This document shows positions 7,291-53,700 of a DNA stretch of 64,000 nt, piece by piece; the first letter of the stretch is position 1, and the number at the start of each line of letters is the position of its first letter. Source of the stretch: Thermoplasmata archaeon (GTDB taxonomy: Archaea > Thermoplasmatota > Thermoplasmata > RBG-16-68-12 > SOIM01). The translations under genes and the position numbers were made by a program. The notes under the pieces were generated by a model. It was not told where the DNA came from. It saw only the letters and a program-made list of their open reading frames with translations, and made no database searches. The stretch is from NCBI GenBank assembly GCA_023140195.1, contig JAGLME010000032.1, forward strand, positions 52,220-116,219. The letters run 5' to 3'.

Positions 7291-8730
7291 TTACTTCCGC
7301 TGCCCCGCTCTGGGGAGCCACTTAGCCATTGAAAAGCCGTAGAAGGCGACTCCCAATCCTCCGAACAGAATTGCCAGGAACAGCAGAATGTTGAACGTAT
7401 AAGTCACGGTAGACGGCGAGGTTGATGTGTCGAGCTCCATGCCCGTTATGCCACCATCTAAGGTCACCTTGTAAGATCCACTCTCAAAGAGGGCTACCGA
7501 ATCCACCGATCCTGTGTAGACCATGAGAGTGATCAGGCCTGAAATGATGAAGAAGACGATACCCAGCAATACCAGGATGGCGCCGGCCTTCGCAGTTCCG
7601 TCTGACGGGACGACCGCGGGAGCAACGGCTGCTGGCCGTGCAGCTGCTGGTCGGGCCCTGGTTGCAGGTCTTGCGACACCCGGTTTCGCACCGGGCGGCC
7701 TCACGGCGACGGTCACCCTCTGCGGTGGGGCCTTGAGAGGTCTGTATGCTCGACAGCTCCAGCAGTAATACTGCCTGTGCTTGGGCACGTATTTCATGTC
7801 CGAACCGCATGCCGGGCATCGCTTCACCGCTGGAGGTGCTCCAGCTCTCGGCTCGACCTTCTTGACCCCCTCGTACGCCTTGCAGCTGTTACAGTACCAC
7901 CTGTTGTATTCTTTGATGTGTCTGAGAGGTCTCCCGCACGTAGAGCATGTCTTTCCAGGTCTCTTTGCGACTTCTGGAGCTTCTTTCCTGGAAATGGTCA
8001 CCGGAGCGTATGTTCCACAACTCTGGCAGTACCACCTCTCGTATTCCTTGATGTACTTGAGAGGCCTCTTGCACGTGGGGCAGGGTCTCGCTTCTTGTGC
8101 TGGGACCGCTGCCGCGGCAGGGGGAGCAGCAGGCTTGGGCTTCTCTCTGGGAGCATATGACTTGCAGCTGTGACAGTAATACCTATCATACTTCTCAATG
8201 TGTTCGAGCTCCTTCCCGCAAGTTGGGCAGGGACGCTCGATCTTCTCCTTGGGAGGTGGCGGGGCCTCTTCCTCAATGGGTGCGGCGACTTCTTCTTCAG
8301 CGACTTCCTCTTCAGGCTCTTCTTCTGGAGGCTCCTCCTCTTCAGGTGCTTCTTCCTCTTCGGTCTTCTCTTCCTCAGGAGCTTCCTCTTCCTCCTCGGG
8401 TTCTTCCTCAGGAGCTTCCTTTTCTTCCTCTTCAGGTGCTTCTTCCTCTTCGGTCTTCTCTTCCTCAGGAGCTTCCTCTTCAGGCTCTTCTTCCTCAGGA
8501 GCTTCCTCTTCTACCTCTTCCTCGGCCTCCTCTTCTTCACCCTCAATAGGCTCTTCCTCTTCTGGTTCTTCTTCAGCGGGACCTTCGCCAGATATGTAGG
8601 CGTACAACCTGTTCTGTAGATCTTTCTTGACGCCAGAAGTATCAAGGTCGCAGGTCTCACACATGTCCTTCAGTTGGGCCTTCTTAGCTTTCTGTATGTC
8701 TTCCTCCGTGATAGAAGATTCTTCGGCCAT
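7291..8730 (-). CDS. Membrane protein with four regions: an N-terminal SAP-like DNA-binding motif; a ~120-aa poly-Glu/Pro low-complexity region; four tandem C4 zinc-ribbon modules (CPxCG...YxRxYCxxCxxY); and two C-terminal TM helices
   Basis: SAP-like LKDMCETCDLDTSGVKKDLQNRLYAYI. Four ~45-aa repeats each with CxxC...CxxC. Hydrophobic helices ILVLLGIVFFIISGLITLMVY and FNILLFLAILFGGLGVAFYGF. Confidence 0.75.
   Translation of the reverse strand: MAEESSITEEDIQKAKKAQLKDMCETCDLDTSGVKKDLQNRLYAYISGEGPAEEEPEEEEPIEGEEEEAEEEVEEEAPEEEEPEEEAPEEEKTEEEEAPEEEEKEAPEEEPEEEEEAPEEEKTEEEEAPEEEEPPEEEPEEEVAEEEVAAPIEEEAPPPPKEKIERPCPTCGKELEHIEKYDRYYCHSCKSYAPREKPKPAAPPAAAAVPAQEARPCPTCKRPLKYIKEYERWYCQSCGTYAPVTISRKEAPEVAKRPGKTCSTCGRPLRHIKEYNRWYCNSCKAYEGVKKVEPRAGAPPAVKRCPACGSDMKYVPKHRQYYCWSCRAYRPLKAPPQRVTVAVRPPGAKPGVARPATRARPAAARPAAVAPAVVPSDGTAKAGAILVLLGIVFFIISGLITLMVYTGSVDSVALFESGSYKVTLDGGITGMELDTSTSPSTVTYTFNILLFLAILFGGLGVAFYGFSMAKWLPRAGQRK
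8335..8530. repeat. About 90-bp tandem direct repeat (two copies plus degenerate flanks) encoding the EEEAPEEEKTEEEEAPEEEE acidic block of the 7291..8730 protein
   Basis: The string ttcaggtgcttcttcctcttcggtcttctcttcctcaggagcttcctcttc occurs at 8341-8391 and 8431-8481. Shadow ORFs in every frame are artefacts of the low complexity. Confidence 0.65.
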
Positions 8731-22590: not shown

Positions 22591-23466
22591 ATGAAGAAGA
22601 TCAAGAGCGGAATCTATGGTCTGAACGAGCTCATCGACGGGGGGATGAACGAGAACTCGACCACCGTCGTCATCGGTTCATCAGGTGCTGGGAAGACCAC
22701 CCTCGCAACCCAGTTCATCAGACGCGGTTTGGAGGATGGACAGGAAGGGATATTCGTCAGCCTCGATGAGAACAAGGAACAGATAATCAGAGAGGCGGTC
22801 GAGATGGGGTGGAGTGAGATCCTCGAGTATCTGGATGACGAGCTCTTGGTTTTCATTGACGCTTCTGGCAGGGAGTTCTCCAACTTCATCAAGAAGGAGT
22901 TGCCGGCATTCGTTTCAGACTGGAGCGGCTCCAAGGCCAGGATTGCCATCGACCCCCTCACACCCGTCATGTGGTCAACCAAGGACCCCTACGAGCAGAG
23001 AGACCTTGTCGGGTTCATGTTGAAGCAAACCAGAAAGGTCGGTACTGTCCTGTGCACCCTGGAGGAGCACGGAGGCACGAGCGATCTTTCGGGGTCCGAG
23101 ACCGTCATCCCCATGTACCTTTCTGACTGCGTCATCCATCTTCGCTACATCCCTCTTGAAGGCGGAGTGAGCAGAATGTTGAAGATTGTCAAGTGCAGGA
23201 GCAGCAGGCACAGCGAGCACTCTCATCCGTACTACATCATGAAGGGTCTGGGTCTGGTCGTGGAGAAAGGGGACTTCAAGACGCTCACAAGCAACGACAT
23301 ACCCTTAGAGATGAAGAAGAAGCTCGCGGAGAATAAAGACGATCTCCCTGAGAAGGTTTATGCAAGGTTGGAGAAGGTCCTGGACGAGCTCACCGACGGT
23401 GATTTCCGGGGTCTGAAGGCCGCTCACCTTGTGGACAGCATTCTCAATGAATACGCTGGTGAGTAA
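22591..23466 (+). CDS. KaiC-like / RecA-superfamily ATPase (single KaiC domain)
   Basis: Walker A (GSSGAGKTT) with a KaiC-type N-terminus (SGIYGLNELIDGG). The stop overlaps the start of the next gene (TAAATG). Confidence 0.8.
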   Translation: MKKIKSGIYGLNELIDGGMNENSTTVVIGSSGAGKTTLATQFIRRGLEDGQEGIFVSLDENKEQIIREAVEMGWSEILEYLDDELLVFIDASGREFSNFIKKELPAFVSDWSGSKARIAIDPLTPVMWSTKDPYEQRDLVGFMLKQTRKVGTVLCTLEEHGGTSDLSGSETVIPMYLSDCVIHLRYIPLEGGVSRMLKIVKCRSSRHSEHSHPYYIMKGLGLVVEKGDFKTLTSNDIPLEMKKKLAENKDDLPEKVYARLEKVLDELTDGDFRGLKAAHLVDSILNEYAGE

Positions 23467-24174
23467 ATGCCCGAGGGGGTTGGCAGAGCCCTCGAAAGGA
23501 TGGTCAAGCATAAGGAGCCCGATGAACGGGAGGGGAGGAGAGACGCTTCTCTTTTGATGAACGCTGTTAGGAGGAGACTTTTTGAGTATCTCTGCCTGCA
23601 TCCATGTTCTCATTTGTCTGAGATCTCGAGCGCCTTGAAGGTCTCGACAAACACCGCAAGATGGCATCTCCGCAAGCTCATTGGTGGGGACCTGGTCTCT
23701 AAGAGGAAATCCGGAGCCAGGACCTTGTATTACCCGTCCGATTTGATCTCTCTTGACAGTCTTGACGTATTCGAGTTCCTCAGCGACCGACGGATGAGAG
23801 AACTCTATCTGCTTTTGGTCGACAATCCTGGGTCCACCCAAAGCGATCTGGCCAAGTCATTGAAGCTCAGCAACCAGGCCGCGATAAGGGGGACGAAGAA
23901 GCTTGAGAATCTGGGTCTGGTGTCCAAGATACAGGACGGCGTATATGCCAGATACTTCCCAACCGACCTGCTGTCAAGGAAGAAAGAAGCTGAATCACCT
24001 AGAATGAAAGCTTTTCAGGACAGCATCCTCAAGAGGCTCCAGAGCGAAGGTCTGAAGCCTAAGATCATCAGGCGTGAATCCAGCTCGATCATGATCGAGT
24101 TCAGGCTCGCGTCCGAGAAAGGTCTTCTCAACGTCCCAACCGACCCTTTCTCCACTGCACTGGCTGCTGAATAA
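23467..24174 (+). CDS. Transcriptional regulator with two winged-helix (ArsR/MarR-like) DNA-binding domains
   Basis: Two HTH units (LSEISSALKVSTNTARWHLRKL; QSDLAKSLKLSNQAAIRGTKKLENLGLV). Tight coupling to the KaiC-like gene. Confidence 0.7.
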   Translation: MPEGVGRALERMVKHKEPDEREGRRDASLLMNAVRRRLFEYLCLHPCSHLSEISSALKVSTNTARWHLRKLIGGDLVSKRKSGARTLYYPSDLISLDSLDVFEFLSDRRMRELYLLLVDNPGSTQSDLAKSLKLSNQAAIRGTKKLENLGLVSKIQDGVYARYFPTDLLSRKKEAESPRMKAFQDSILKRLQSEGLKPKIIRRESSSIMIEFRLASEKGLLNVPTDPFSTALAAE

Positions 24175-24269: not shown

Positions 24270-27200
24270 ATGGAAGAGGATTTCCTCCAATGGATCTCCA
24301 TCATCCCTGGTGTTGGACCTCGAAGAGCAAGGCGTCTCAAGGAAGCTGGATTAACATCTCCCGAATCGATTCGGGAAGCTTCGATTGAAGAGATAGCACT
24401 GATTGAAGGGATTGGACGAGAGTTGGCCAAGCGCCTCAAGGATTATGCCGAAGAGATCGTTCAGTTGAAGGAAGATCAGGCCTTCCTGTTCATTTGTCCG
24501 GAGTGTGGAGCATTCATAAGCCGGACCGCCAGGAAGTGTGAGGTCTGCGGTGCGGCGATTGAGGAAGGAGAGCTAGATGAGACGGGACTGGCACCCGAGC
24601 CCGAGCTTGTCAGTGAGGAGGAAGAGACTCCAGAGTTGTTCATTTGTCCAGCGTGTGGCAGGTTCATCGGGAAGGATGTTCGGACGTGTCCACATTGCAG
24701 TGCATCCTTCGACGAGGAACCAGAGAGGGAGGAAGACCTCGAGAAGCTCATGTCGGAGCTTGAGAAACAACTGGAAGAACTTGACGAAGACATCAAGACC
24801 CCCTTGGAGGACCTCGATGAGTACCTGAAGGAGGAGCCTCTGGAGATCGAGCCAGAAGAGAAGAAGGCGATAACCAAGGACTTCCTGAAGAGATGGCAGC
24901 GTGTCAGCGAGGAGGAAGAACAGGAGGGAACCAGGAGGTTCGAGGAAGAGCTCCGGCATTACGACAGCCTGCTCGATGCCGACCCCACACTTCAGAGGGC
25001 CTGGGAGAAGAAGGCCGTCATTCTGGTTGAACTTGGCCGGTTCGAGGAAGCAATAGAATGCTATGATATGCTCACTGAGCTGGATCCTGATAGGGAGGAG
25101 GAGTACAAACTTGAAGTCCTTAACCTGGTCAAGGAGATCGAAGGGTTGGCCGGGGCCCCGGTCGAACCAGAGGAAGCTCCGCCGCTGGATGAGACGGAAG
25201 CGATAGAGGGGGCAGTCGCCCATTATGAAGAACTTCTGCGGATAGATCCCTCATTGAAGCAGGCCTGGCAGACCCGAGGAGAACTGTTGGAGAAGCTGGG
25301 CCGACACGAAGAGGCCGTTGCCAGCTATGACAAGGCCATAGAATGCTCCAAGCAAGAGAGATTGCTCGAGATAATGGACCTGGCAAGCCTCAGGAAGAAA
25401 GGCTTGATGGAAGGCCGGACCTCCAGCAAGGCCCTGATACAACGTATGGGCAGGACCAATGGCCTCGTGAACGGCATGGTCAACGGACGCACCAACGGGC
25501 GCGTCAATGGCATGGTCAATGGAAAGACCAACGGCCTCGTGAACGGAAGGGGCAGGGTCAACGGCATGGTTAACGGCCTTGTCAATGGTCTGATGGACGG
25601 CGAGGGCAGGGTCAACGGCATGGTTAACGGACTGGTTAACGGCCTTGTCAATGGTATGGGAAGGGTCAACGGGCTGGTGAACGGCCTGATCAATGGTAAC
25701 GGGCTGGTGAACGGGAGAGGCTCGAAGCGCATGCCCCGGTTCAGAACTGCTGGTGTGGGATGGACCAGATCCCTTGGAGCAATTGCGGCTGTCCTTTCAA
25801 TACTGATCATCGTGCCGCTTCTTATTGGCCTGATTTCTCCCCACGCGCTTCCCTCTCCGATAACGGTCGACGGCAATTTCGATGACTGGGCCGGCGTCCG
25901 TGCTTTTGCTGATGGTCCGTTGGATCAAACTGCCAATCCTGACGTGAATGTCATTTCGTACAAGGCCGAGATACACAGGAACACCGCATTCGTCTATGCC
26001 AAGGTCGAGGGTGTCATACTCAACGGTTCTGGGAGTCAAGGCGTTGATTCAATCTACGTGTTCATAGATAGGGACAATGACGCGGACACAGGATATCTTG
26101 TTGCGGGACTGGGTGCCGACAGTCTGATTGAAATCGGGGGATGGAACAACTCAATCGAGAAGAGCGCCTTCTACACCTTCTCTGAGGGCTTTGAGAGGGA
26201 TGACTGGAGCTCATTCCGAAGGGTCCAACGGGTGAGCAGCGCGATTGGAAGCCAGGAGTTCGAGACGGCGTTCGGAGTGAACGGCGTCAAGGATCCCCGG
26301 ATATTCGTCACGACCTCGGACAATGTCGGTAACTTCGACTTCTCTGACACAATAGTCAGTCCAAAGAAGGATGTGCTGAAGGTTGAACAGACCACCATTG
26401 CCCCTGAAGTCATCCCCGTGATCGCGCCTGTCCATTTCCTTAAGATCGATCTTGACGCACGAAACGGGGCTGCTCGCATCTCCCAGATGAACATCACCAA
26501 GAATGGCAATGTCCTCGATTCGTCTGTCGCAATCGAGCTCGGAATAGACTTCGACGGCGATGAAATCCCCGATCAGCAGGTTTCCTCGGCGGTGTTCTTG
26601 ACCGATATGGCAACATTTGATGTCGACCTCGAAGTGATCGGGGGAATGACATTGATCGTTACTGCGGCACTCACAAATACGGCACCCTCAGCCAACCTCG
26701 GGCTCGGTTTGACAGGAATGACCACCAACGCAACCGTTTCTATCATTGATGAGTTCATCACCAATGTCTATCTTGAAGCCGATCCGATCGTCACAATAGA
26801 TGGGGCATTCGGTGACTGGTCCTCCATCAACAGGGTCCAGGATGGCAATGACGATGTGGTAATGAAGGGCCAACCGACAGCTTGGATTAATGAGAACGTC
26901 GATATCAGGAGCTACGCGGTTGATGTTGGTACGGAAGCTTCATTCTATATGAACGTGGACGGAAATATGCTCGGAGGTGTGGACATACCGATCTTCAGGC
27001 GGAGGCCAAGCGTTTCCCCCGTATTCTTGGACAGCGACCGGGATTCTGTGCCCGATGACTTCGACTTTTACGATTTCGATTTCAACAACGATGCGATTCC
27101 TGACAGACAGACTGGCAATGACTTCGACGAGGACGACATCCTGGATTATCCCTTGGGATCTGACTATTGGCTCAATACCACGATACCCATTGACTTCCCG

Positions 27201-28901
27201 GCGCCTTATGCGAATATCAATGTCTCGGTTTTCATCGGCCCGGTGACATACCCGGTCGTGAAAGGTCTGGATACGCTCTCAGTATACATTGATGTCGATA
27301 ATGACACCACCACCGGACTCTCCATGATCCTGAACAGCCAATCATACGGAATGGACAACCTCTTGGTGGTATCCGGGAGGAACGGTATTGCTCATGTAGC
27401 AGGATTGTACGGGTTCGTCACTGGTCACATTCCCTGGGAATATGTGGAAGATATCTCCAGTCTAGCCTTCGATACCAGGTCGATGGAACTCTCTGTTCCT
27501 CTGACTTCCTTGCAGCTTAGCACCGGCTTCTCGGTGGTGTTCAATCTCATGGACTGGCAAGGCGATTTCGACGTCTCCGACCAGGCTACGGGTAGGTCTC
27601 GAAGCCCTTCCACTGGTACGAGATCTCCAGCTGGTGACAATGTCGTTTTCAACGAGATTTATTCAGTCACTGCAACAAATGAGTGGTTCGAACTTGTGAA
27701 TCCAACTTCCAGCGCAATCAACCTGAATAACTGGGCGGTCGAGATAAAGAGCAAAGGAAAATGGACAAACATCCACACTTTTGGCGCCGTGTCGATTGGA
27801 GCTTGGCTGAGCGGAAGTGAGTACTTGGACGTCGACCTGCCACAGAACTCCATCAAGGACAAGCCTGTGAACATCCGTCTATTGGACTCGACAGGGACTG
27901 TAGTGGATGAAACCAAGCTTCCCAAGCTCAAACCGGGGGAGAGCTGGGCTCGGCTCAAGGATGAAACAGATGGAAAGCCCGAGGACACGGACGATGACTC
28001 GACTGACTGGTATGTGTCTATATCACCAACAAAGGGCAAGTACAATGACAGGAAACGCCCGATAATAGCCGTGGAGAAGACCTCCAACACCGGAACTGCA
28101 GCTCCAGGGGATCTGATTACGTACACCATCTACTACAACAACACAGGGGATGGCATCTCGAAGGACATATGGATAAATGACACTCTACCATCAGAAGTCA
28201 CTTTCGTCTCCTCTTCTGAAACGCCCGTTGGGTCCTCCGGCAGCACATACTACTGGGAATTCACGAACGCCGCTCCCGGGTCATCAAACTCATTCACCGT
28301 GACCGTTCGAGCTAATGACGGACTTACGGACGGAACGGCGTTCAACAACTACGTGGAACTGGATTATACGGACGTGTTCCGGCAAGCCATGGAATGGTCA
28401 AGTTCGAACAAGACCATGGTCGTTGAGCGTCCGGTCATCTCTGTGATTAAGGTCTCAGACGTGTCCGATGGGGGGATTGGCGACACGATCACCTACACCA
28501 TCTATTACAACAACACCGGCAACGGGACGGCAGGCCATGTGTGGGTCAACGACACCATTCCGATCTTCACCACCTTCCAGTCTTCCAGCGTTCCCTACGA
28601 GTCCCAAGCCGGGCTGACTTATGTGTTCCACTTCTACGACGTGGCGCCCGGATCCAACTCGTTCACAATCTCGGTGACGGTCAACATGACGGCCCCAGAC
28701 GGAATCGACCTGGTGAACTTGGCTGTCTTGGATTACACCACCGCGAACGAATACCCCCTGGAAAGCAGCAGTGACACGGCCATCGTCCACGTTCCCGAGT
28801 TCGATGCCTTTCTTATCCCGATAATCAGCGTGGTCGTCATCTTCATGTGGAGGAACAAGAGGGCGAAGAAGCGCAAAGAAGAGGATTCTGAAAAAGAGTG
28901 A
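24270..28901 (+). CDS. Giant (1543 aa) chimeric membrane protein with a cytoplasmic N-terminal half and an extracellular C-terminal half. Cytoplasmic: HhH motif(s), two C4 zinc ribbons, acidic coiled-coil, TPR repeats and about 18 tandem xVNGx pentapeptide repeats. A single TM helix follows. Extracellular: repeated DUF11/CARDB-like beta-sandwich domains, a lamin-tail domain (LTD), then a C-terminal PEF-CTERM-like sorting signal (PEF + TM + Arg/Lys tail).
   Basis: HhH (IPGVGPRRARRLKEAGL; IEGIGRELAKRL). Zn-ribbons (FICPECG...CEVCG; FICPACG...CPHC). TPRs (AWEKKAVILVELGRFEEAIECYD). TM (LGAIAAVLSILIIVPLLIGLIS) after a KRMPRFR positive patch. LTD (VVFNEIYSV..EWFELVNPTSSAINLNNWAVE). DUF11-like (ITYTIYYNNTGDG...) twice. 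C-terminal VPEFDAFLIPIISVVVIFMWRNKRAKKRK. Own TATA box about 27 bp upstream. Confidence 0.8.
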   Translation: MEEDFLQWISIIPGVGPRRARRLKEAGLTSPESIREASIEEIALIEGIGRELAKRLKDYAEEIVQLKEDQAFLFICPECGAFISRTARKCEVCGAAIEEGELDETGLAPEPELVSEEEETPELFICPACGRFIGKDVRTCPHCSASFDEEPEREEDLEKLMSELEKQLEELDEDIKTPLEDLDEYLKEEPLEIEPEEKKAITKDFLKRWQRVSEEEEQEGTRRFEEELRHYDSLLDADPTLQRAWEKKAVILVELGRFEEAIECYDMLTELDPDREEEYKLEVLNLVKEIEGLAGAPVEPEEAPPLDETEAIEGAVAHYEELLRIDPSLKQAWQTRGELLEKLGRHEEAVASYDKAIECSKQERLLEIMDLASLRKKGLMEGRTSSKALIQRMGRTNGLVNGMVNGRTNGRVNGMVNGKTNGLVNGRGRVNGMVNGLVNGLMDGEGRVNGMVNGLVNGLVNGMGRVNGLVNGLINGNGLVNGRGSKRMPRFRTAGVGWTRSLGAIAAVLSILIIVPLLIGLISPHALPSPITVDGNFDDWAGVRAFADGPLDQTANPDVNVISYKAEIHRNTAFVYAKVEGVILNGSGSQGVDSIYVFIDRDNDADTGYLVAGLGADSLIEIGGWNNSIEKSAFYTFSEGFERDDWSSFRRVQRVSSAIGSQEFETAFGVNGVKDPRIFVTTSDNVGNFDFSDTIVSPKKDVLKVEQTTIAPEVIPVIAPVHFLKIDLDARNGAARISQMNITKNGNVLDSSVAIELGIDFDGDEIPDQQVSSAVFLTDMATFDVDLEVIGGMTLIVTAALTNTAPSANLGLGLTGMTTNATVSIIDEFITNVYLEADPIVTIDGAFGDWSSINRVQDGNDDVVMKGQPTAWINENVDIRSYAVDVGTEASFYMNVDGNMLGGVDIPIFRRRPSVSPVFLDSDRDSVPDDFDFYDFDFNNDAIPDRQTGNDFDEDDILDYPLGSDYWLNTTIPIDFPAPYANINVSVFIGPVTYPVVKGLDTLSVYIDVDNDTTTGLSMILNSQSYGMDNLLVVSGRNGIAHVAGLYGFVTGHIPWEYVEDISSLAFDTRSMELSVPLTSLQLSTGFSVVFNLMDWQGDFDVSDQATGRSRSPSTGTRSPAGDNVVFNEIYSVTATNEWFELVNPTSSAINLNNWAVEIKSKGKWTNIHTFGAVSIGAWLSGSEYLDVDLPQNSIKDKPVNIRLLDSTGTVVDETKLPKLKPGESWARLKDETDGKPEDTDDDSTDWYVSISPTKGKYNDRKRPIIAVEKTSNTGTAAPGDLITYTIYYNNTGDGISKDIWINDTLPSEVTFVSSSETPVGSSGSTYYWEFTNAAPGSSNSFTVTVRANDGLTDGTAFNNYVELDYTDVFRQAMEWSSSNKTMVVERPVISVIKVSDVSDGGIGDTITYTIYYNNTGNGTAGHVWVNDTIPIFTTFQSSSVPYESQAGLTYVFHFYDVAPGSNSFTISVTVNMTAPDGIDLVNLAVLDYTTANEYPLESSSDTAIVHVPEFDAFLIPIISVVVIFMWRNKRAKKRKEEDSEKE
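25450..25725 (+). repeat. In-frame 15-bp tandem repeat array (~18 copies) encoding (L/M/R)VNG(x) pentapeptides within the 24270..28901 CDS
   Basis: Consensus ggc-(m)tg-gtc/a-aac-ggc repeated. Protein: NGLVNGMVNGRTNGRVNGMVNGKTNGLVNGRGRVNGMVNGLVNGLMDGEGRVNGMVNGLVNGLVNGMGRVNGLVNGLINGNGLVNG. Confidence 0.75.
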
Positions 28902-29210: not shown

Positions 29211-30131
29211 CTAGGTTATTGCCAACACAAGCCCCAAGATCAGGTTCCCTATGAAGAACGATATCAGAAGACCGAGGAGCATCGGAACCATGAAAGGTAG
29301 CTGCGGTGTCGCCCATGCTTCATCCCGGCCAAATGCAATCAGTGTCTGGATCTCCCCCTCTTTGTCGCCTCTCCTTTTCGGGAAGACGCTTGTCTCCACT
29401 CTTTCATTGCGCACTCGCTCCATCAGCCAAGCGAACTTGGGAAAATCGGCCAGACCTGCCTTGTACCCGAACAGGCACTGAGGGAACTCAAGATTCCCCT
29501 TTCGGGCGTTGATGACCAGGAATACCAGTGGTGCGAAGACGATCAATATGGCCGCGTTCATCAGGATCACCAAGGAGAACGGAAAGACGATTTCCATGAA
29601 ACTCCCGGCTGGAAATCCCATTTCAATGATTGGAAATCCGAGGAACGCAGGATAGAATGGGGCAAGTACTGCCAGGGACATCAGGGCCTTGGCATCGGCA
29701 CCGCCTTTCAGCAGCCCTGTCTGGAAGAATATGTGGGCAACGATGATCATCGCTGGTATGGTTAAGAGGCGGAGGAAAAGCTCCATTTGAGCAGCATCCT
29801 GATGGAGCAAGAACATTTGGACAATGATCACAACCGCCACCGTCCCGTAGAGAATGAACCCGAGCGGAACGAAGTGGAGGCCTTCATCGATTATCGGCTC
29901 GCGTTCGATGTAAACCTCATAGAAGAGTATCCCTGCCGGTAAGAAGATCAGGAAGTGGACCCAGGTCGCGTCGGAATGACTAAGAAGGTCCATCCCCAGA
30001 ATCAGGAATCCTAAGGCCCCGAGGGCCATCCAGACCTCGTTCTTAACCCTCCTTGTTCTGACATCGGAATAGGCGGCAAACCCAAAGAAGACAACCCCAA
30101 CAAGAAGTCTCAGGAGGGAGAGAGTCTCCAT
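29211..30131 (-). CDS. Type IV prepilin / preflagellin peptidase (A24 family, FlaK/PibD-like). The internal start METLSLL at 30131 is preferred over the long ORF start at 30314.
   Basis: Catalytic Asp motifs YSDVRTRRVKNEVW (D...RR..N) and GGADAKAL (GxGDxKL-type). About 8 TM helices. Confidence 0.75.
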   Translation of the reverse strand: METLSLLRLLVGVVFFGFAAYSDVRTRRVKNEVWMALGALGFLILGMDLLSHSDATWVHFLIFLPAGILFYEVYIEREPIIDEGLHFVPLGFILYGTVAVVIIVQMFLLHQDAAQMELFLRLLTIPAMIIVAHIFFQTGLLKGGADAKALMSLAVLAPFYPAFLGFPIIEMGFPAGSFMEIVFPFSLVILMNAAILIVFAPLVFLVINARKGNLEFPQCLFGYKAGLADFPKFAWLMERVRNERVETSVFPKRRGDKEGEIQTLIAFGRDEAWATPQLPFMVPMLLGLLISFFIGNLILGLVLAIT

Positions 30132-30154
30132 GTTTCTGTGTACAAAGGGTTCGT

Positions 30155-30161
30155 ATATAAT
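30155..30161. promoter_or_regulatory. TATA-box-like element (TATATAA) in the divergent intergenic region between the A24 peptidase (-) and MscS (+) genes. Possibly bidirectional.
   Basis: AT-rich TATA-like heptamer located 55-60 bp upstream of the MscS ATG (30217) and about 25 bp from the peptidase ATG. Confidence 0.4.
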
Positions 30162-30216
30162 ACTATTGAGATGGCCATTGAGAAGGTTTATTAGTTCTCT
30201 TTCTATTGCCTGCCAC

Positions 30217-31758
30217 ATGTCAAGCAGACTCGCCGTTATTTCGATTCTTGGCATTTTCTTTTTGGCTCTATTCAGTATGAATGCCTTGGCATCAGAACAG
30301 ATTGGCAGCACCAATCTCTACGCTTTTCCTGATGGCGATGTGGATGTGGAGGTCCACCTGGATGAAGAAGTTGTGTATGTTTGGTCGATCTGTAACACCG
30401 GTTCAGAGAGGTATCAAGTCTCGACGTCCGTGAACAACACGGGCGACTTCGATGCCTTCGTCACTCCGACCCATCTCGATTTCCTGCCGGACCAGAGCGA
30501 CGAGGGCTGCAAGGATGTGACCCTGACCGTGAACGCTCCCTCAGAAGGTGAAGAAGAGGTTGTACTTATTGGAGTCGTTTTCAGCACCACCAACCTGGCG
30601 ACATTTGAAGTTTCGAACGAGACAATCTTCACGACCAACAGATTGACTGGTGTGACCCATCCTGCAGATCCCGAAGGGAAGCTCTTCGGCTTTTATGATA
30701 ACTTTCTACCCTCTCCCCTTGACACTTCTTTCTGGGCCTTCATTATCACATTCCTGTTATGGATCGCAATAGCGGGATTCATCGTCGGGCTTGCCAATTT
30801 GATTGCCAGGACCTTTGCACGCGAGACCGAGACAAAGGTCGACGACATGATCGTCGAACTGATGAAGGGCCCCATATTCCTTCTGATAATCTTCTTTGGA
30901 TTTCAATTCTCGATGCCCATCGGTGGATTCGACAGTAGCCAGATACCGTTTCTGGACTCGGTCCTCGGCATGATGTTGACCGGATTGATAACTTGGATTT
31001 CGTATAAGGTCTTCAAAGACATACTCGTTTACTACGGCAAGATACTCTCGGCCAGGACCCAGACCGACCTGGACGACAGGTTGATACCAGTGATCTCGAA
31101 GCTGGGCGGTATGGTGATAATTGTTTTTGGAGTCATCGCAATCTTCGGGTCCTTTGGCTTTGACATAGCCCTGTTCCTCGCTGGTATGGGTTTCTTGGGC
31201 ATTGTTATCGGCTTCGCAGCCAGATCCACTCTTTCGAATTTCTTCGCTGGTATTTTCCTAATGCTGGATCGGCCGTTCAAACCTGGCGATTTGATCGTCA
31301 TTGGATCCGGAGAGGTCTGCAGGGTGGCCTGGGTCGGATTGAGGAGCACCAAGTTGTATCACGTTTCCAGCCATCAGATGATCACCCTTCCGAACAACAT
31401 GCTGGCCGAAGAGAAGGTCATTAACATAACCCAACCCGACGAGAGGTTCAGGACCAAGGTCGAGATTGGCGTTGCTTATGGAACGGACCTGGACCATGTG
31501 AAGAAGACTCTGCTTGATGTAGTGAACAGTCATCCGGACGTTCTCAAAGGAGAAGACACGAAGATCCTCTTCCGTGTGCTGGCATTTGCGGACTCGAGCA
31601 TCAACGTCAAGGTGATCTTCTGGGTCAACAAAGTGGAGAACAAGTGGCGGGTAGAGAGCGAACTGAAGGAGATGCTCGACAAGAGGTTCAAGGAGGAACA
31701 CATCGAAATACCATTCCCCCAAAGAGTGGTGTACATGCATCAGGAGACGAAGATGTAG
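30217..31758 (+). CDS. Mechanosensitive channel MscS family with an N-terminal signal peptide and a ~170-aa extracellular beta-sandwich-like domain. The start is at the internal Met (MSSRLAVISILGIFFLALFSMNALA).
   Basis: MscS beta-domain and C-terminus (LMLDRPFKPGDLIVIG...VEIGVAYGTDL). Signal peptide. N-domain with DUF11-like strands (DVTLTVNAPSEGEEEVVLIGVVFS). Confidence 0.85.
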   Translation: MSSRLAVISILGIFFLALFSMNALASEQIGSTNLYAFPDGDVDVEVHLDEEVVYVWSICNTGSERYQVSTSVNNTGDFDAFVTPTHLDFLPDQSDEGCKDVTLTVNAPSEGEEEVVLIGVVFSTTNLATFEVSNETIFTTNRLTGVTHPADPEGKLFGFYDNFLPSPLDTSFWAFIITFLLWIAIAGFIVGLANLIARTFARETETKVDDMIVELMKGPIFLLIIFFGFQFSMPIGGFDSSQIPFLDSVLGMMLTGLITWISYKVFKDILVYYGKILSARTQTDLDDRLIPVISKLGGMVIIVFGVIAIFGSFGFDIALFLAGMGFLGIVIGFAARSTLSNFFAGIFLMLDRPFKPGDLIVIGSGEVCRVAWVGLRSTKLYHVSSHQMITLPNNMLAEEKVINITQPDERFRTKVEIGVAYGTDLDHVKKTLLDVVNSHPDVLKGEDTKILFRVLAFADSSINVKVIFWVNKVENKWRVESELKEMLDKRFKEEHIEIPFPQRVVYMHQETKM

Positions 31759-49700: not shown

Positions 49701-50705
49701 ATGAACGCCAAGGAGGCCCTGCCCAGATATTTCCGTGTTCTGGACGAGAAGGAACTGCCCTATTACATGATATGCAAGGGGGTTCCAGTGCGGTCATCTT
49801 TGGATTCTGAGACATACCTGCTTTGGGAGGAGCACGCAGAGCTTGTGGAGAAGGTCAGATCGATCAGGGTGCCCTCCCCGGTTGCTGAGACGAACCTGCT
49901 GGATCTGAAGATCGAGCTTGCGAGAAGGATGCTAAATCCCTGCCGTCTCTGCGAAAGGAAATGCAACGTGAACAGGTTGGATGGGGAGGCGGGGTACTGC
50001 AGGGTCAAGGAGTCCAAGGTCTCATCCAAGTTCGTGCACTGGGGCGAGGAGCCGGAGCTTGTGCCTTCGTACACCATCTTCTTCTCCAGATGCACCTTCG
50101 AATGCGTTTTCTGTCAGAACTGGGACATAAGCCAGAGGGATACTGGACAATACATTTCAACGGACGATCTGGCAAACTCGGTGGAGAGGATGTTAGGAGG
50201 CGTGCGGAACGTTAACTGGGTAGGTGGGGATCCAACACCAAATCTGGTCTACATTCTGGAGGTTCTGAAGAGCTGCAACGCCAACATACCCCAAGTCTGG
50301 AACTCGAACATGTACCTGACCGAAGATGCAATGGCTCTCTTGGATTGCATCACGGATGTGTACCTTGCTGACTTCAAGTATGGAAATGACAAGTGTGCTG
50401 GAAGACTATCCCGGATAACGAGATACTTCGAGGTCGTTTCAAGGAATCATGCGATTGCCAATAAGCAAGCTGGGATCGTCTTGAGGCACCTGGTTCTGCC
50501 TGGTCATATTGAGTGCTGTACGAAACCAATAATGGATTGGATCGCGGAGAACCTGGATACATCTCGAATAAGGGTAAATGTGATGGACCAGTACCGTCCA
50601 GAGTACAAAGCCAGAGATTTCGAAAGATTGGAGAAGCGTCTGTCCCACAAGGAGTTCCTTCAGGCATATCGTTATGCCGAGGGTCTAGGTCTGAACATCA
50701 TCTGA
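49701..50705 (+). CDS. Radical SAM protein, PflX-like (COG1313; pyruvate-formate-lyase-activating-enzyme-related)
   Basis: N-terminal CxxC..C..C (CRLCERKCNVNRL...YCRV) and a radical SAM CX3CX2C (FSRCTFECVFCQNWD). Confidence 0.75.
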   Translation: MNAKEALPRYFRVLDEKELPYYMICKGVPVRSSLDSETYLLWEEHAELVEKVRSIRVPSPVAETNLLDLKIELARRMLNPCRLCERKCNVNRLDGEAGYCRVKESKVSSKFVHWGEEPELVPSYTIFFSRCTFECVFCQNWDISQRDTGQYISTDDLANSVERMLGGVRNVNWVGGDPTPNLVYILEVLKSCNANIPQVWNSNMYLTEDAMALLDCITDVYLADFKYGNDKCAGRLSRITRYFEVVSRNHAIANKQAGIVLRHLVLPGHIECCTKPIMDWIAENLDTSRIRVNVMDQYRPEYKARDFERLEKRLSHKEFLQAYRYAEGLGLNII

Positions 50706-53700
50706 TTCCTCCAATGATTGTCCCTCAGCATCAACGTTATCGGGTTCATCCTCTTTGTCAGAATCCCTCGTTTTCCTATACCAGAGGTAGGGAATTAGAA
50801 GTAAGACAACAGCGACTATGATAACCAGAATCACCACAGGATACAGCAACACCGGGGGACCATCAGGGTGAGGGTGACAGCTTCCCGTTTGGACAGTCGT
50901 GTATGATGGTATGAAGTCGGTTTCGTTGGATGACACGACAAGATTGTATGCCCCACCACACTCGACACTGTCTGGAATAACGAATGTGGTTGTGATGATT
51001 CCATTCTCTCCGCTGACAGTGAAGGCTTCTGTACCGACTAACGTCGTGTCGAGGCTCTCAAGTCGAAGAATCAATTCGACACCTTCGACCCCTTGTTCTG
51101 ACCCAACCTCGCGCACCCAACCATCGACAAGGATTTCCTCTCCTCCATCGATCCTCTGGCCCTCAGTTGGGTTGTAGACTGACACGTAGATGTTTGTGGG
51201 AGTCGGATTGTAGGTTTCCTGGACATAGAACGTTTCATCCAGCGAAGCCCAATTTCCACTTGAATCCACTGCCCATATCGTCACGTTGTAGTATCCAGCC
51301 AAAGGATATATCTGGCCGAAGTAGTACGGCGTCCCTGGATTCATGCTGTTGTTGGACACCTGCAGATTCGGATCCTCAATGACGATCCAAACACCCGTGA
51401 GTTCGTAGTTGTCGGTGACAATAGCAGAAATGTTGACGTATTCGTCTTGTTCAGGATTAGTGGGAACGTATCCCCAATTGTCTATTGTGGGTGGCGTCAA
51501 GTCCACCACTTGGAACTGCCCCGTCGTCCAATTCCAGTTCCCGGAGGAATCTACCGCCCACACCGTCATGTTGTAATATCCAGCCATGGGGTATATTTGG
51601 CCGAAATAGTAAGGCGTCCCTGGATTCATGCTGTTGTTGGACACTTGCAGATTCGGATCCTCAATGACGATCCAAACACCCGAGAGCTCATAGTTGTCCG
51701 CTACAATGGCAGAGATGTTTATGTAGTCGTCTTGTTCGGGGTTAGTAGGACTGGATTCAAGATTGATAATTGTGGGTGGCGTCAAGTCCACCACTTGGAA
51801 CTGTCCCGTCGTCCAATTCCAGTTCCCAGAGGAATCCACTGCCGATATATTGAAATCATAGGTTCCAAGCACATCCCAATTGCTGACATTGTAGAATCTG
51901 GTTCCCAACGAGTCCAGAGTCGTGTTGATCGGAGGCAATATAGGGGGCGTGAACTCGATCCTAGCGCCGAACACTCCAAAATCGTCGAAGACATCAGCTG
52001 ATATGTTGATGCTGTTGAACACCTCCAGTGGGGAAGGAATCTGAGTGAGGTTCTCTATGACGGGTGGTTGTGTATCCGGTGCAAGTGCGGTCCTGAAGCT
52101 CCAGCTGTAGAGCGAAGCCAAACTGTTACCTGGGTCTGAATCGTCAGTTGCTAGTGTTGTAAAGTTCGCTGTATACCAACTGGCAACAGCCAGGTCAAAG
52201 TCCGGGTTGAACGAAAAGACTGTACCCATCCAGCTCATTTGCCCAGTAACCGTTGTCCAAGAGGCATTGTCCTTGAGGGAGAACGATACGTTCGTTATCG
52301 GCATGTTCATCAGTTCGCTCCAGGTCGACTGCAGTAGAGCATTCGTTGGTACATTCTGTGTCCCGTCCGACGGAGCTACCGAGATTACGATAGGTCGCGT
52401 CGAATCGATCTCGAACACGGTGCTTGTTCCCGAACCAGTTGCACCTTCTGAGTCCACCACCTCAGCCTCAATGTACGCCGTGGTTGAGTCCACCATCGGC
52501 AAAGTCCAGAGATATGGTGAGGAGTCCCCAGCGATTGGCCCCACTATCGGAAGCCAAGGAGCACCCCCGTTCAGAGAGTAGTTGAGCCAGACTTGAAGAG
52601 AAGAGGACGGATTCTCCGTATCGGAAGCAGTGAAAGAGACGAAATGGTTCGAATTGCCAGTCCAGACTTCTCCACCTGCAGGTATGTCCACCAACACTGT
52701 CGGTGCTACGTTCTGGGTTTCAGTCGTGAACGAGAAGCTCAGCATGCTATCAAGCGGATTTCCTGGTGAAGAAGCATCCACAGCGGTCTGAAGAAGAGTC
52801 ACGAAATATGTTTGGCCATACAAGAATGAGTTGTGAGTCCCGGTAAGGTTGTCATTCGGATAGGTGATCGAGGACCATGCCCAAGACCATCCGAATGGAT
52901 TTGGTATCACGCCCATGGATGATATGACCGAGTTAGTGTCCATACCCTCATTGAATTGGATGAAAATAGGCTGATCAATTGGCATATCAATGGCCCCGTT
53001 CTCGGGAATCGTATAGAGCACGTTCGGAGGCGTCGAATCGATATCTGAGATCATTATCTCATCCCAGTTCACCAGACCTCCCGGGTCAAAGACCGTTAGG
53101 TTGATTGTCGCATCAGTCGCGTCGATCGATGGCGTTGTCCAAAGATAAGAGTTCGGATTTGCAGTTCCAGCCATGGGTCCCGCGATGGTGCCCGTTGAAG
53201 CTCCAGTGTTGTAGCTGTAGTTGAGATAGACGAGGAGGTTGGAGTTAGGGCTGTCGTCGCTCATGTTCCACCAAATGGTGTGAGCGGTATTGCCCGTCCA
53301 ATTCTGGAGACCTGTAGGATAACTGAATGAGACCTGTGGTCTGAAAACTGGCGGTGCTCCCTGCTTGTAGACGCGCACTCCTGACGTGCTTGTGGCAGCT
53401 ATGTCTTGTACCCCATCATTGTCCATATCTCCGAAGTCCACTCCCCAGTACTTTCCCGTGGTGGGAATCCCTGACACTCCCGGATTGGACCAGATCATCG
53501 AACCGCTTGCTCCCCCATTACCTCTCATATATCCAATACCTGTCGCCCCCGCGTTATCCACGCTCGTGAAGATCAGGTCAGAGTTGCCATCGAGGTTGGT
53601 GTCGCCAATATCCACTCCACCGAACCGACCTGTCGCCGGGAGACCGGTATCTGCTGGTGTCCAGATCATGGTTCCTCCAGCTCCTCCGTTGCCCAGCCAA

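What the first reader, a model, noticed from the sequence alone, without database searches (positions are those of the whole stretch)
25450..25725. About 18-copy in-frame 15-bp tandem array encoding an xVNGx pentapeptide repeat
The repeat NGLVNGMVNGRTNGRVNG... is not the classical A(D/N)LXX pentapeptide repeat. It sits in the cytoplasmic juxtamembrane region of the giant protein. Perfect periodicity at the protein level with wobble variation at the DNA level suggests selection for the peptide, possibly a beta-helix or a Gly/Asn-rich flexible spacer. Such arrays are also prone to copy-number variation.
Basis: seen in the sequence. Interest (0 to 1): 0.5.

Follow-up and report, generated by a model that had tools for sequence, protein, structure and literature searches.

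The report
Conserved Asn-Gly tetrapeptide juxtamembrane array
About twenty four-residue x-Val-Asn-Gly units (not five-residue ones) sit just inside the membrane in a giant archaeal surface protein; the array is kept by selection, varies in length across a large family from uncultured Thermoplasmata, and most likely works as a non-globular tether, though its structure is unknown.

Summary
The repeat is real at window 25452-25721 (+), aa 395-484 of a 1543-aa ORF. Its period is 12 nt / 4 aa, not 15 nt / 5 aa. It has 20 [R/L/M/K]-[V/T/I]-N-G units and five 2-residue x-G inserts, with higher-order periods of 36 and 54 nt.

It lies between cytoplasmic HhH, zinc-ribbon and TPR modules and a transmembrane helix. 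A beta-sandwich/LTD/DUF11 ectodomain and a PEF-CTERM-like tail follow.

- **Conservation:** all 120 listed homologs (Thermoplasmata/Methanomassiliicoccales MAGs) carry such an array, with 3-26 Asn-Gly dipeptides. Across 214 array-bearing proteins it ends a median 15 aa before the helix.
- **Spread:** 372 cluster representatives in 1.84 billion proteins match.
- **Selection:** against a 91%-identical ortholog the array has 8 synonymous and 0 non-synonymous changes. The rest of the protein has about 10% replaced codons.
- **Not an artefact:** three independent assemblies agree.
- **Structure:** AlphaFold2 gives none (pLDDT about 30).
- **Databases:** no Pfam, NCBIfam, PDB or literature entry describes it.

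Best reading: a selected, cationic, turn-rich, non-globular stalk or tether of adjustable length with a fixed membrane-proximal block. A multivalent docking or self-association role is the main rival. The beta-helix idea is not supported. Interest is moderate: an undescribed motif of an uncharacterised archaeal family.

The parts
25452..25721 (+). The tetrapeptide array (aa 395-484): 20 units [R/L/M/K]-[V/T/I]-N-G and 5 x-G inserts. Higher-order periods are 36 nt (25455-25546) and 54 nt (25542-25697).
   Evidence: It is the only such array in the window.
25674..25721 (+). Membrane-proximal conserved block of the array, LVNG-LING-NG-LVNG-RG. The family consensus is T-N-G-L-V-N-G-N-G-F/L-T/V-N-G-R.
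   Evidence: 129 of 214 array-bearing proteins keep NG[LMIF][VIT]NG.G[FLMIYV][TVI]NG. Invariant columns appear in alignments A1/A2. The block is collinear and nearly invariant in 8 orthologs, while length changes lie membrane-distal.
25722..25754 (+). Basic juxtamembrane linker (aa 485-495, SKRMPRFRTAG). It continues as VGWTR into the helix start.
   Evidence: Sequence. Family-wide, the distance from the last NG to the hydrophobic core has a median of 15 aa, and the linker has a median net charge of +4.
25755..25838 (+). Transmembrane helix 1 (aa about 496-523), oriented N-in.
   Evidence: AlphaFold2 helix at model residues 272-298. Hydropathy window. Positive-inside distribution read.
24270..28901 (+). 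Host gene: a 1543-aa membrane protein.
   Evidence: It has 483 homologs at E<=1e-5.
24303..24698 (+). Cytoplasmic helix-hairpin-helix domain (aa 12-60) and two Cys4 zinc ribbons (aa 76-143).
   Evidence: Pfam HHH_5 4.3e-12, Zn_ribbon_3 1.1e-8, DZR 1e-6.
24951..25355 (+). Cytoplasmic TPR repeats (aa 228-362).
   Evidence: Pfam TPR_2/TPR_8/TPR_1 about 1e-13. AlphaFold2 pLDDT above 90.
25845..27623 (+). Ectodomain of stacked beta-sandwiches (aa 526-1118). It holds two copies of a D-G-x-F-x-D-W ... D-x-D-x-D-x-x-T-G-Y module and has no Pfam model.
   Evidence: AlphaFold2 mean pLDDT 89.9. Invariant columns. Foldseek gives only generic adhesin/Ig/CBM-like hits with TM<=0.2.
27624..28655 (+). Lamin-tail domain (aa 1119-1215) and two DUF11 repeats (aa 1266-1462).
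   Evidence: Pfam LTD 1.2e-7 and DUF11 2.6e-20. TIGR01451 6.4e-21.
28791..28898 (+). C-terminal PEF + hydrophobic helix + Lys/Arg tail (PEF-CTERM-like sorting signal).
   Evidence: TIGR03024 scores 15.0 bits against a cutoff of 23, E 0.022. Sequence PEFDAFLIPIISVVVIFMWRNKRAKKRK.
22591..24174 (+). Upstream co-oriented genes conserved with the host gene: a single-domain KaiC-like ATPase (22591-23466) and a double winged-helix protein (23467-24174).
   Evidence: Pfam and NCBIfam. The same order is seen in 6 of 7 homolog contigs at 31-91% identity.

Best explanation
The array is a selected, cationic, turn-rich low-complexity segment. It forms a non-globular stalk or tether on the cytoplasmic face of the membrane. 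It joins the cytoplasmic head (HhH, zinc ribbons, TPR) to the first transmembrane helix of a giant Thermoplasmata surface protein.

**How it would work (inferred)**
- Each x-[V/T/I]-N-G unit pairs a beta-branched residue with Asn-Gly, the dipeptide most prone to tight turns.
- This keeps the chain free of helices and of a packed core.
- The 90 residues then act as an extended, flexible connector rather than a domain.

**How its length changes**
- Whole higher-order units are gained or lost in the membrane-distal half. Steps of 12 and 18 residues are the clearest.
- The membrane-proximal block GLVNGNG(F/L)(T/V)NGRRGR and the basic linker stay fixed, about 15 residues from the helix.

**Shown:** the anatomy, position, conservation, purifying selection, length variation and absence of a confident predicted fold.
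**Inferred:** the tether function and the conformation.
For: 1. **Position.** Across 214 array-bearing proteins the array ends a median 15 aa (range 9-44) before a hydrophobic helix, and the linker has a median net charge of +4. All 120 listed homologs have the array, whatever their cytoplasmic domains.
2. **Length.** Asn-Gly dipeptides per protein range from 3-4, essentially the terminal block alone, to 26 in the homologs and 32 in the representatives. Among 8 orthologs, length changes of 2-18 residues (most clearly +12 and +18) sit in the distal half while the proximal half is collinear. Tethers tolerate this; folded domains do not.
3. **Predicted structure.** AlphaFold2 with an alignment gives pLDDT 27-46 and no secondary structure over aa 378-492. 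The same run gives TPR above 90 and the helix 70-86.
4. **Selection.** Window against L001 shows 8 synonymous and 0 non-synonymous changes in 90 codons. The rest of the protein has 145 non-synonymous changes in 1453 codons. My arithmetic: 0.9^90 is about 8e-5. L074 gives 9 and 0.
5. **Unit composition over 120 homologs.**
   - Position 1: R 0.39, L 0.35.
   - Position 2: V 0.51, T 0.35, I 0.11.
   - Positions 3-4: N-G (fixed by how units were parsed).
   - Acidic residues are almost absent.
   - Mean Chou-Fasman propensities: turn 1.12, sheet 1.05, helix 0.87.
6. **Independent analogy.** In SLFN_AlbA_2 + HATPase_c_4 proteins of many phyla, a short (xVNG)4-7 run lies between the HATPase_c_4 match and the C-terminal ~50-60 residues, which Pfam does not match. 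I read those residues as a wHTH from memory of COG2865.
Against: - Entropic tethers usually conserve composition, not sequence. Here Asn and Gly are essentially fixed, and the array is the most conserved segment of the protein in the ortholog pair. That points to a more specific role.
- The composition is not that of a classical disordered region. Mean normalised hydropathy is 0.48, above the charge-hydropathy boundary of 0.44, with about 35% aliphatic residues.
- If the array were truly unstructured, twenty Asn-Gly sites should deamidate within hours to days. This rests on the textbook peptide half-life of about 1 day at 37 C and the arithmetic. It argues for protection by structure or partners.
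- A low pLDDT does not prove disorder. Structures that form only on oligomerisation or binding are invisible to a monomer prediction.
Confidence: 0.45

Rival explanations
1. Multivalent docking or self-association rail. The repeated units and the conserved terminal block are short linear motifs that become ordered when bound. The partner could be neighbouring copies of the protein (polar-zipper or silk-like beta lamination, giving a sub-membrane lattice). It could also be the operon partners (KaiC-like ATPase, double wHTH protein) or the protein's own or a neighbour's TPR.
For: - Sequence-level conservation is very strong: 0 non-synonymous changes in 90 codons.
- A specific terminal block is kept in 129 of 214 proteins.
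- 91% of NG-to-NG spacings are even (4, 6, 8 ...). Beta-branched/Gly and long-side-chain/Asn residues therefore stay on alternate positions, as in an extended strand.
- Hydropathy lies on the 'compact' side of the charge-hydropathy boundary.
- Synteny with a KaiC-like ATPase and a wHTH protein holds in 6 of 7 contigs.
- TPR domains are peptide binders (established knowledge).
Against: - With the TPR in the same chain, AlphaFold2 did not dock the array; pLDDT stayed near 30.
- From the precomputed Pfam lists, at least eight homologs without a detectable TPR still carry arrays, for example P0033, P0035 and P0072.
- Copy number from about 3 to 32 is hard to reconcile with a fixed stoichiometry.
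- No partner contact has been shown.
Confidence: 0.3
2. A regular beta-solenoid (beta-helix) built from tetrapeptide units. Coils would be 12 or 18 residues long.
For: - Higher-order periods of 12 aa (36 nt) and 18 aa (54 nt) exist in this array. They match coil lengths known from tight beta-helices (12 residues in beetle antifreeze protein, 18 in left-handed beta-helices; own knowledge).
- Asn and Gly at fixed positions are typical of solenoid corners.
Against: - AlphaFold2 finds no strands and pLDDT 27-46, although it normally predicts solenoids well.
- Higher-order periods differ between homologs (about 8, 10, 11, 12, 14 and 18 aa), and odd inserts occur.
- No Pfam repeat family matches.
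- No PDB sequence matches apart from a Plasmodium low-complexity insert.
Confidence: 0.07
3. A neutral low-complexity expansion: replication slippage of a 12-nt unit with no function of its own, tolerated because it lies between domains.
For: - Short, perfect xVNG runs of 4-7 copies occur sporadically in unrelated bacterial ORFs, as expected from slippage.
- Copy number varies between orthologs.
Against: - Units differ at synonymous sites, so the array is old rather than recently slipped.
- There are no amino-acid changes where about 9 are expected.
- The array is present in every homolog down to about 31% identity, and in 372 representatives.
- It has a fixed position relative to the helix and a conserved terminal block.
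Confidence: 0.08
4. A cationic membrane-surface anchor. The array lies flat on the cytoplasmic leaflet, with Arg/Lys binding lipid head groups and Leu/Val inserting.
For: - Net charge is +7 with almost no acidic residues.
- It sits immediately next to the transmembrane helix.
Against: - The summed Wimley-White interfacial free energy is unfavourable, about +14 kcal/mol.
- There are no aromatic residues except in the terminal block of relatives.
- No amphipathic helix is predicted.
Confidence: 0.1

Closest known systems
GxxxG glycine repeats of FliH / YscL (Trost & Moore 2009, PMC2674601)
   Same: Both are long runs with Gly at every fourth residue, variable in copy number between orthologs, in a cytoplasmic protein segment. 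This is the only curated-library signal for the array: NCBIfam FliH models at E 5e-4 to 4e-2.
   Different: - FliH repeats carry Glu, Gln, Lys and Ala at the x positions and are read as alpha-helical.
- Here the x positions are [R/L], [V/T/I] and Asn, and no helix is predicted.
- The scores are far below the family cutoff, 19.8 against 180 bits.
- There is no homology; the resemblance is periodicity only.
Asn-containing tetrapeptide low-complexity arrays of Plasmodium: (HMNG)n insert of pyridoxal kinase, PDB 6su9, and (NANP)n of circumsporozoite protein
   Same: Both have a four-residue period with Asn (and Gly or Pro), many tandem copies, and a non-globular, turn-forming character. 6su9 is the only PDB sequence hit. 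The NANP turn structure is from my own knowledge.
   Different: - The Plasmodium arrays are in eukaryotic parasite proteins and are not juxtamembrane.
- They lack the beta-branched position 2 and the cationic position 1.
- The PDB hit is compositional (bias 42 of the score), not homology.
Short (xVNG)4-7 linker in SLFN_AlbA_2 + HATPase_c_4 proteins (COG2865-type putative regulators)
   Same: It has the same x-V-N-G tetrapeptide. The run lies between the HATPase_c_4 match and a C-terminal ~50-60-residue segment in proteins of many phyla. This supports a linker role for the motif.
   Different: - It has only 4-7 copies, and x is uniform (G, T or L) with near-perfect DNA repeats.
- There is no Arg/Leu alternation, no x-G inserts, no conserved terminal block and no membrane helix.
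- The protein family is unrelated.
- The wHTH identity of the C-terminal segment is from my memory of COG2865; Pfam did not match it here.
Flexible juxtamembrane tethers such as the P/Q-rich linker of ZipA or the FtsZ C-terminal linker (own knowledge)
   Same: These are non-globular segments of variable length. They connect a membrane anchor to a cytoplasmic globular module, and length matters more than exact sequence.
   Different: Those linkers conserve composition only. Here the unit sequence, its parity and a terminal block are conserved.
Pentapeptide repeat proteins (A(D/N)LXX, Pfam PF00805)
   Same: Both are short tandem peptide repeats with Asn.
   Different: The period here is 4, not 5. 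There is no Pfam match and no predicted beta-helix.

Membership tests
Pentapeptide repeat (A(D/N)LXX; Pfam PF00805/PF13599) | Five-residue period | tested here: not met
   Self-identity is 0.00 at lag 5 and 0.50 at lag 4; DNA is 0.21 at lag 15 and 0.53 at lag 12. TRF finds no period 15.
Pentapeptide repeat (A(D/N)LXX; Pfam PF00805/PF13599) | Match to the Pfam profile | tested here: not met
   hmmscan of aa 379-548 at E<=1 returns only a spurious TrAA12 hit of 9.9 bits.
Pentapeptide repeat (A(D/N)LXX; Pfam PF00805/PF13599) | Right-handed quadrilateral beta-helix fold | tested here: not met
   AlphaFold2 shows no strands and pLDDT 27-46 over the array. This is a prediction only.
FliH / YscL GxxxG glycine repeats | Gly at every fourth residue in a long uninterrupted run | tested here: met
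   Eight consecutive units precede the first x-G insert.
FliH / YscL GxxxG glycine repeats | Helix-favouring Glu/Gln/Lys/Ala at the x positions, with AxxxG ... xxxA caps (PMC2674601) | tested here: not met
   Positions are R/L, V/T/I and N.
FliH / YscL GxxxG glycine repeats | Protein scores as FliH | tested here: not met
   The best NCBIfam FliH model scores 19.8 bits against a cutoff of 180.
Left-handed beta-helix hexapeptide repeat | Six-residue period [LIV]-G-x4 and 18-residue coils | tested here: not met
   Lag 6 identity is 0.17 and comes only from the x-G inserts. There is no Pfam Hexapep hit. The 54-nt period is local to this lineage.
Unnamed Thermoplasmata family: (HhH/Zn-ribbon/TPR) - NG array - TM - DGxFxxW ectodomain | [R/L]-[V/T/I]-N-G array ending 9-44 aa before a transmembrane helix | tested here: met
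   In the window the array ends at aa 484 and the helix starts near aa 496.
Unnamed Thermoplasmata family: (HhH/Zn-ribbon/TPR) - NG array - TM - DGxFxxW ectodomain | D-G-x-F-x-x-W motif shortly after the helix | tested here: met
   The window has VDGNFDDW just after the helix. The motif is present in 77 of 103 array-bearing representatives and is invariant in A2.
Unnamed Thermoplasmata family: (HhH/Zn-ribbon/TPR) - NG array - TM - DGxFxxW ectodomain | Gene preceded by a KaiC-like ATPase and a double wHTH gene | tested here: met
   Window 22591-24174. The order holds in 6 of 7 homolog contigs.
PEF-CTERM / archaeosortase substrates (TIGR03024) | C-terminal PEF + hydrophobic helix + basic tail scoring above the model cutoff | tested here: inconclusive
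   The motif is visible in the sequence, but the score is 15.0 bits against a cutoff of 23.
PEF-CTERM / archaeosortase substrates (TIGR03024) | A cognate archaeosortase in the genome | not tested
   None was found among the window ORFs scanned. The rest of the genome is not available.

The most novel reading that the evidence does not exclude
The array is not a passive linker but a functional device built from Asn-Gly, in one of two forms.

(a) It is a deamidation clock. Twenty Asn-Gly sites would convert within hours to days to Asp/isoAsp. This would erase the +7 charge and kink the backbone, so the age of each envelope protein would be written into its cytoplasmic stalk and read by the operon's KaiC-like ATPase or wHTH protein.

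(b) It is a multivalent rail on which those partners or neighbouring copies assemble. This would couple a surface layer to DNA-binding HhH/zinc-ribbon modules across the membrane.
Probability: 0.07. Interest if true: 0.75.

Novelty: new variant of a known kind. Interest (0 to 1): 0.35.

Why it matters
If the reading holds, this is a defining and so far undescribed sequence signature of a large protein family. The family has at least 372 clusters at 50% identity and, as far as I saw, is restricted to Thermoplasmata-type archaea. It is a giant protein that spans the membrane, with a DNA/peptide-binding head inside and adhesin-like beta-sandwiches outside, and it is always encoded after a KaiC-like ATPase and a winged-helix protein.

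A profile for the array together with the helix and the DGxFxxW motif would let annotators recognise the family and its topology. The strict Asn-Gly conservation poses a concrete biophysical question. How does a cell keep twenty of the most deamidation-prone dipeptides in one segment, and does it use or prevent that chemistry? For the scan itself, the practical result is a correction: tetrapeptide, not pentapeptide; real, selected and not an artefact.

Tried and rejected
- **Word-index search with the array plus helix alone.** It returned only 26 short fragments and missed the full-length relatives. The exhaustive search replaced it.
- **Genome-collection scan for four consecutive xVNG units.** Most hits were short perfect runs in unrelated bacterial ORFs.
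- **PDB searches with the array and with the family profile.** Apart from TPR and HhH, they found only a compositional match to the Plasmodium pyridoxal kinase insert. A paper search did not show whether that insert is ordered in 6su9.
- **Full-text search for five motif strings.** No paper.
- **PADLOC on the three operon proteins.** Only generic P-loop and HTH similarities, so no defence system is indicated.
- **TPR-array docking in cis.** Not seen in the AlphaFold2 model.
- **Membrane-interface partitioning.** Unfavourable on the Wimley-White scale.
- **N-glycosylation.** Rejected from the sequence: no N-x-S/T sequon is formed, and the segment is cytoplasmic.
- **Foldseek of the ectodomain model against the PDB.** Only generic beta-sandwich/adhesin hits with TM<=0.2, so no function follows from it.
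- **Makarova et al. paper on archaeal KaiC-like ATPases.** Not found in the searchable library.
- **First ortholog-array alignment.** It used a faulty end-point. One search is the corrected one.
Full report
**Observation**

The sequence at 25452-25721 (+) is an in-frame tandem array inside ORF 24270-28901, a 1543-aa protein. Its period is four residues, not five.
- At protein level, self-identity is 0.50 at lag 4 and 0.00 at lag 5.
- At DNA level it is 0.53 at lag 12 and 0.21 at lag 15.
- Tandem Repeats Finder reports periods 12, 36, 42, 54 and 66 but not 15.

Parsing gives 20 units of the form [R/L/M/K]-[V/T/I]-N-G, one of which is LMDG. Five two-residue x-G inserts bring the total to 90 aa. 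Units differ at synonymous sites. No second array of this kind exists in any frame of the window.

**Host protein and topology**

Pfam places the following along the protein:
- a helix-hairpin-helix domain at aa 12-60;
- two Cys4 zinc ribbons at aa 76-143;
- TPR repeats at aa 228-362;
- a lamin-tail domain at aa 1119-1215;
- two DUF11 repeats at aa 1266-1462.

The array (aa 395-484) is followed by a basic stretch, SKRMPRFRTAGVGWTR, and a hydrophobic helix at about aa 496-523. AlphaFold2 models that helix. The N-terminus has no signal peptide, and it carries zinc ribbons and a DNA-binding-type module. Six Lys/Arg precede the helix and none lie in the 15 residues after it. The array is therefore cytoplasmic and juxtamembrane; this is an inference from the positive-inside rule.

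The segment aa 520-1118 folds with high confidence (mean pLDDT 89.9) into stacked beta-sandwiches. It contains two D-G-x-F-x-D-W ... D-x-D-x-D-x-x-T-G-Y modules. Foldseek finds only generic adhesin, Ig or CBM-like folds. The C-terminus, PEF + helix + KR tail, resembles a PEF-CTERM sorting signal but scores below cutoff.

**Distribution**

The protein has 483 homologs at E<=1e-5. Where they are named, they come from Thermoplasmata, Methanomassiliicoccales or 'Methanobacteriota' MAGs. Every one of the 120 listed homologs has an array just before a hydrophobic segment, with 3-26 Asn-Gly dipeptides.

An exhaustive phmmer search with aa 385-520 against 1.84 billion cluster representatives gave 372 hits at E<=1e-3 and 79 at E<=1e-10. 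Among the listed representatives that carry an array, 88 of 103 have a helix within 90 aa, and 77 have D-G-x-F-x-x-W after it. Their outer domains vary (DUF11, FG-GAP, MG2), as do their cytoplasmic domains.

Over 214 array-plus-helix proteins:
- the last N-G lies a median 15 aa (range 9-44) before the hydrophobic core;
- the linker has a median net charge of +4;
- 129 keep the terminal block NG-[LMIF]-[VIT]-NG-x-G-[FLMIYV]-[TVI]-NG.

Members with only 3-4 units consist essentially of that block. The picture is a conserved membrane-proximal core with lineage-specific expansions.

The unit composition over 120 homologs is as follows.

| Position | Residues |
|---|---|
| 1 | R 0.39, L 0.35, F 0.07, M 0.05, K 0.04 |
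| 2 | V 0.51, T 0.35, I 0.11 |
| 3 | N |
| 4 | G |

Positions 3-4 are fixed by how units were parsed. NG-to-NG spacings are 4 (51%), 6 (18%) and 8 (11%), and 91% of them are even.

**Selection and copy number**

Against the 91%-identical ortholog L001, the array has 8 synonymous and 0 non-synonymous codon differences in 90 codons. The rest of the protein has 145 non-synonymous differences in 1453 codons. At that rate the chance of none in 90 codons is about 8e-5 (my arithmetic). A GenBank Methanomassiliicoccales MAG (L074) gives 9 and 0. Three independent assemblies thus share the same 270-nt array, which excludes an assembly artefact.

Among eight orthologs (67-100% identity) the region varies from 95 to 125 residues. 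The clearest steps are +12 and +18 residues. All the changes lie in the membrane-distal half, and the proximal 45 residues or so are collinear.

**Structure**

AlphaFold2 on aa 225-624 with a 26-sequence alignment gives TPR above 90 and the helix 70-86. Over aa 378-492 it gives pLDDT 27-46 with no secondary structure and no docking onto the TPR.

Higher-order periods differ between homologs, at about 8, 10, 11, 12, 14 and 18 aa. Together these results speak against a fixed beta-solenoid.

The composition is G 28%, N 22%, V 17%, L 10%, R 9% and M 7%, with net charge +7. Hydropathy is slightly above the charge-hydropathy boundary. The Wimley-White interfacial energy is unfavourable. Mean propensities rank turn above sheet above helix. 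The segment is therefore neither a textbook disordered region nor a membrane-surface helix.

**Known families**

No Pfam or NCBIfam model covers the array. The only signals are sub-threshold matches to FliH, 19.8 against 180 bits. These reflect the period-4 glycine of the FliH GxxxG repeats. Those repeats have helix-favouring residues at the x positions (PMC2674601), whereas these do not.

The only PDB sequence match is the (HMNG)n low-complexity insert of Plasmodium pyridoxal kinase, 6su9, and it is compositional. A full-text search for five motif strings found no paper.

A genome-wide DNA scan for four consecutive xVNG units hit at least 119 loci. Nearly all are short, perfect runs with a uniform x in unrelated bacterial ORFs. 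Heterogeneous [R/L][V/T/I]NG arrays followed by a helix occurred at eight loci. The six whose record titles were shown are Thermoplasmata-type MAGs; L107 and L110 were beyond the 80 rows printed.

One recurrent bacterial and DPANN class is informative. In SLFN_AlbA_2 + HATPase_c_4 proteins, a (xVNG)4-7 run lies between the HATPase_c_4 match and the C-terminal ~50-60 residues. Pfam leaves those residues unmatched; I read them as a wHTH from memory of COG2865. This is independent support for xVNG as a linker-type sequence.

**Context**

A single-domain KaiC-like ATPase (22591-23466) and a double winged-helix protein (23467-24174) precede the gene. The same order holds in 6 of 7 homolog contigs at 31-91% identity. 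The PolD large subunit is often upstream and an A24-type peptidase downstream. PADLOC gives nothing specific. The window is otherwise ordinary archaeal chromosome: FtsZ, Spt5, L11, L10, glycosyltransferases, PolD, RNA polymerase B/A'/A'' and Cdc48.

**Explanation**

Best supported (0.45): a selected, cationic, turn-rich, non-globular stalk or tether of adjustable length. It would link the cytoplasmic head to the membrane helix, with a fixed membrane-proximal block.

The main rival (0.30) is a multivalent docking or self-association rail. The unusually strict sequence conservation, the even-spacing rule and the conserved operon partners favour it. No contact has been shown.

Minor rivals:
- beta-solenoid, 0.07;
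- neutral slippage product, 0.08;
- membrane-surface anchor, 0.10.

One open point is chemistry. Peptide Asn-Gly has a half-life of about one day at 37 C, pH 7.4 (own knowledge; Robinson & Robinson, Geiger & Clarke). Twenty such sites in an exposed chain should deamidate within hours to days (arithmetic). Either the array is protected or the chemistry is used. This is the basis of the low-probability novel reading.

**Verdict**

The feature is real and under selection, but it was mis-described: it is a tetrapeptide, not a pentapeptide. It is an undescribed motif that marks an uncharacterised and apparently Thermoplasmata-restricted family of giant membrane proteins. Its kind, a tandem oligopeptide inter-domain or juxtamembrane linker, is known. 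Its sequence, conservation and setting are new. Interest is moderate, at 0.35.

Noticed in passing
window 22591-24174 (+), with 24270-28901: A KaiC-like single-domain ATPase and a double winged-helix protein always precede the giant gene. The order holds in 6 of 7 homolog contigs down to 31% identity. This looks like a conserved three-gene unit of unknown function in Thermoplasmata.
   Followed up: partly
window 28791-28898 (+): The giant protein ends in PEF + hydrophobic helix + Lys/Arg tail. This resembles a PEF-CTERM archaeosortase sorting signal but scores below the model cutoff (15 against 23 bits). No archaeosortase was seen in the window.
   Followed up: partly
window 25845-27623 (+): A 600-aa ectodomain segment has no Pfam model but a confident AlphaFold2 model (pLDDT 89.9). 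It contains two copies of a beta-sandwich module marked by D-G-x-F-x-D-W and D-x-D-x-D-x-x-T-G-Y, the latter possibly a metal site. Fold search gave only generic adhesin or CBM-like hits.
   Followed up: partly
window 29211-30314 (-): An A24-family (FlaK/PibD-like, Arc_PepC_II) membrane peptidase lies convergent to the giant gene. It is in the same position in three homolog contigs (L001, L002, L003).
   Followed up: partly
window 50685-55700 (-): This is a second giant surface-type protein of 1671 aa, with nine FG-GAP-like repeats and two Big_5 domains. It has no Asn-Gly array.
   Followed up: no
window 7291-8730 (-): A 479-aa protein carries an N-terminal SAP domain and several zinc ribbons. 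It is another putative DNA-binding, zinc-ribbon-rich protein, loosely reminiscent of the cytoplasmic head of the giant protein.
   Followed up: no
window 25325-25876 (-): A 183-aa open frame lies on the opposite strand across the array. It is most likely a shadow ORF produced by the repetitive codon composition, not a gene.
   Followed up: no
L126 10668-15341 (+): In one homolog contig a second giant HhH-containing protein (1557 aa) follows directly and has no Asn-Gly array. The array is therefore not a general feature of HhH-bearing giant proteins in these genomes.
   Followed up: partly
L011, L044, L063, L073, L081, L085 (loci): Proteins with SLFN_AlbA_2 + HATPase_c_4 domains from very different phyla (Patescibacteria, Francisella, Woesearchaeota and others) carry a short perfect (G/T/L-V-N-G)4-7 run. 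It lies between the HATPase_c_4 match and the C-terminal ~50-60 residues, which I take to be a wHTH from memory. This looks like a recurrent microsatellite-like linker.
   Followed up: partly
L054 (Phytoactinopolyspora limicola), ORF aa 365-453: An acidic (D-E/V-N-G)x22 tetrapeptide array lies directly before a C-terminal hydrophobic segment in an actinobacterial ORF. It has the opposite charge to the archaeal array and probably belongs to a cell-wall-anchored protein.
   Followed up: no
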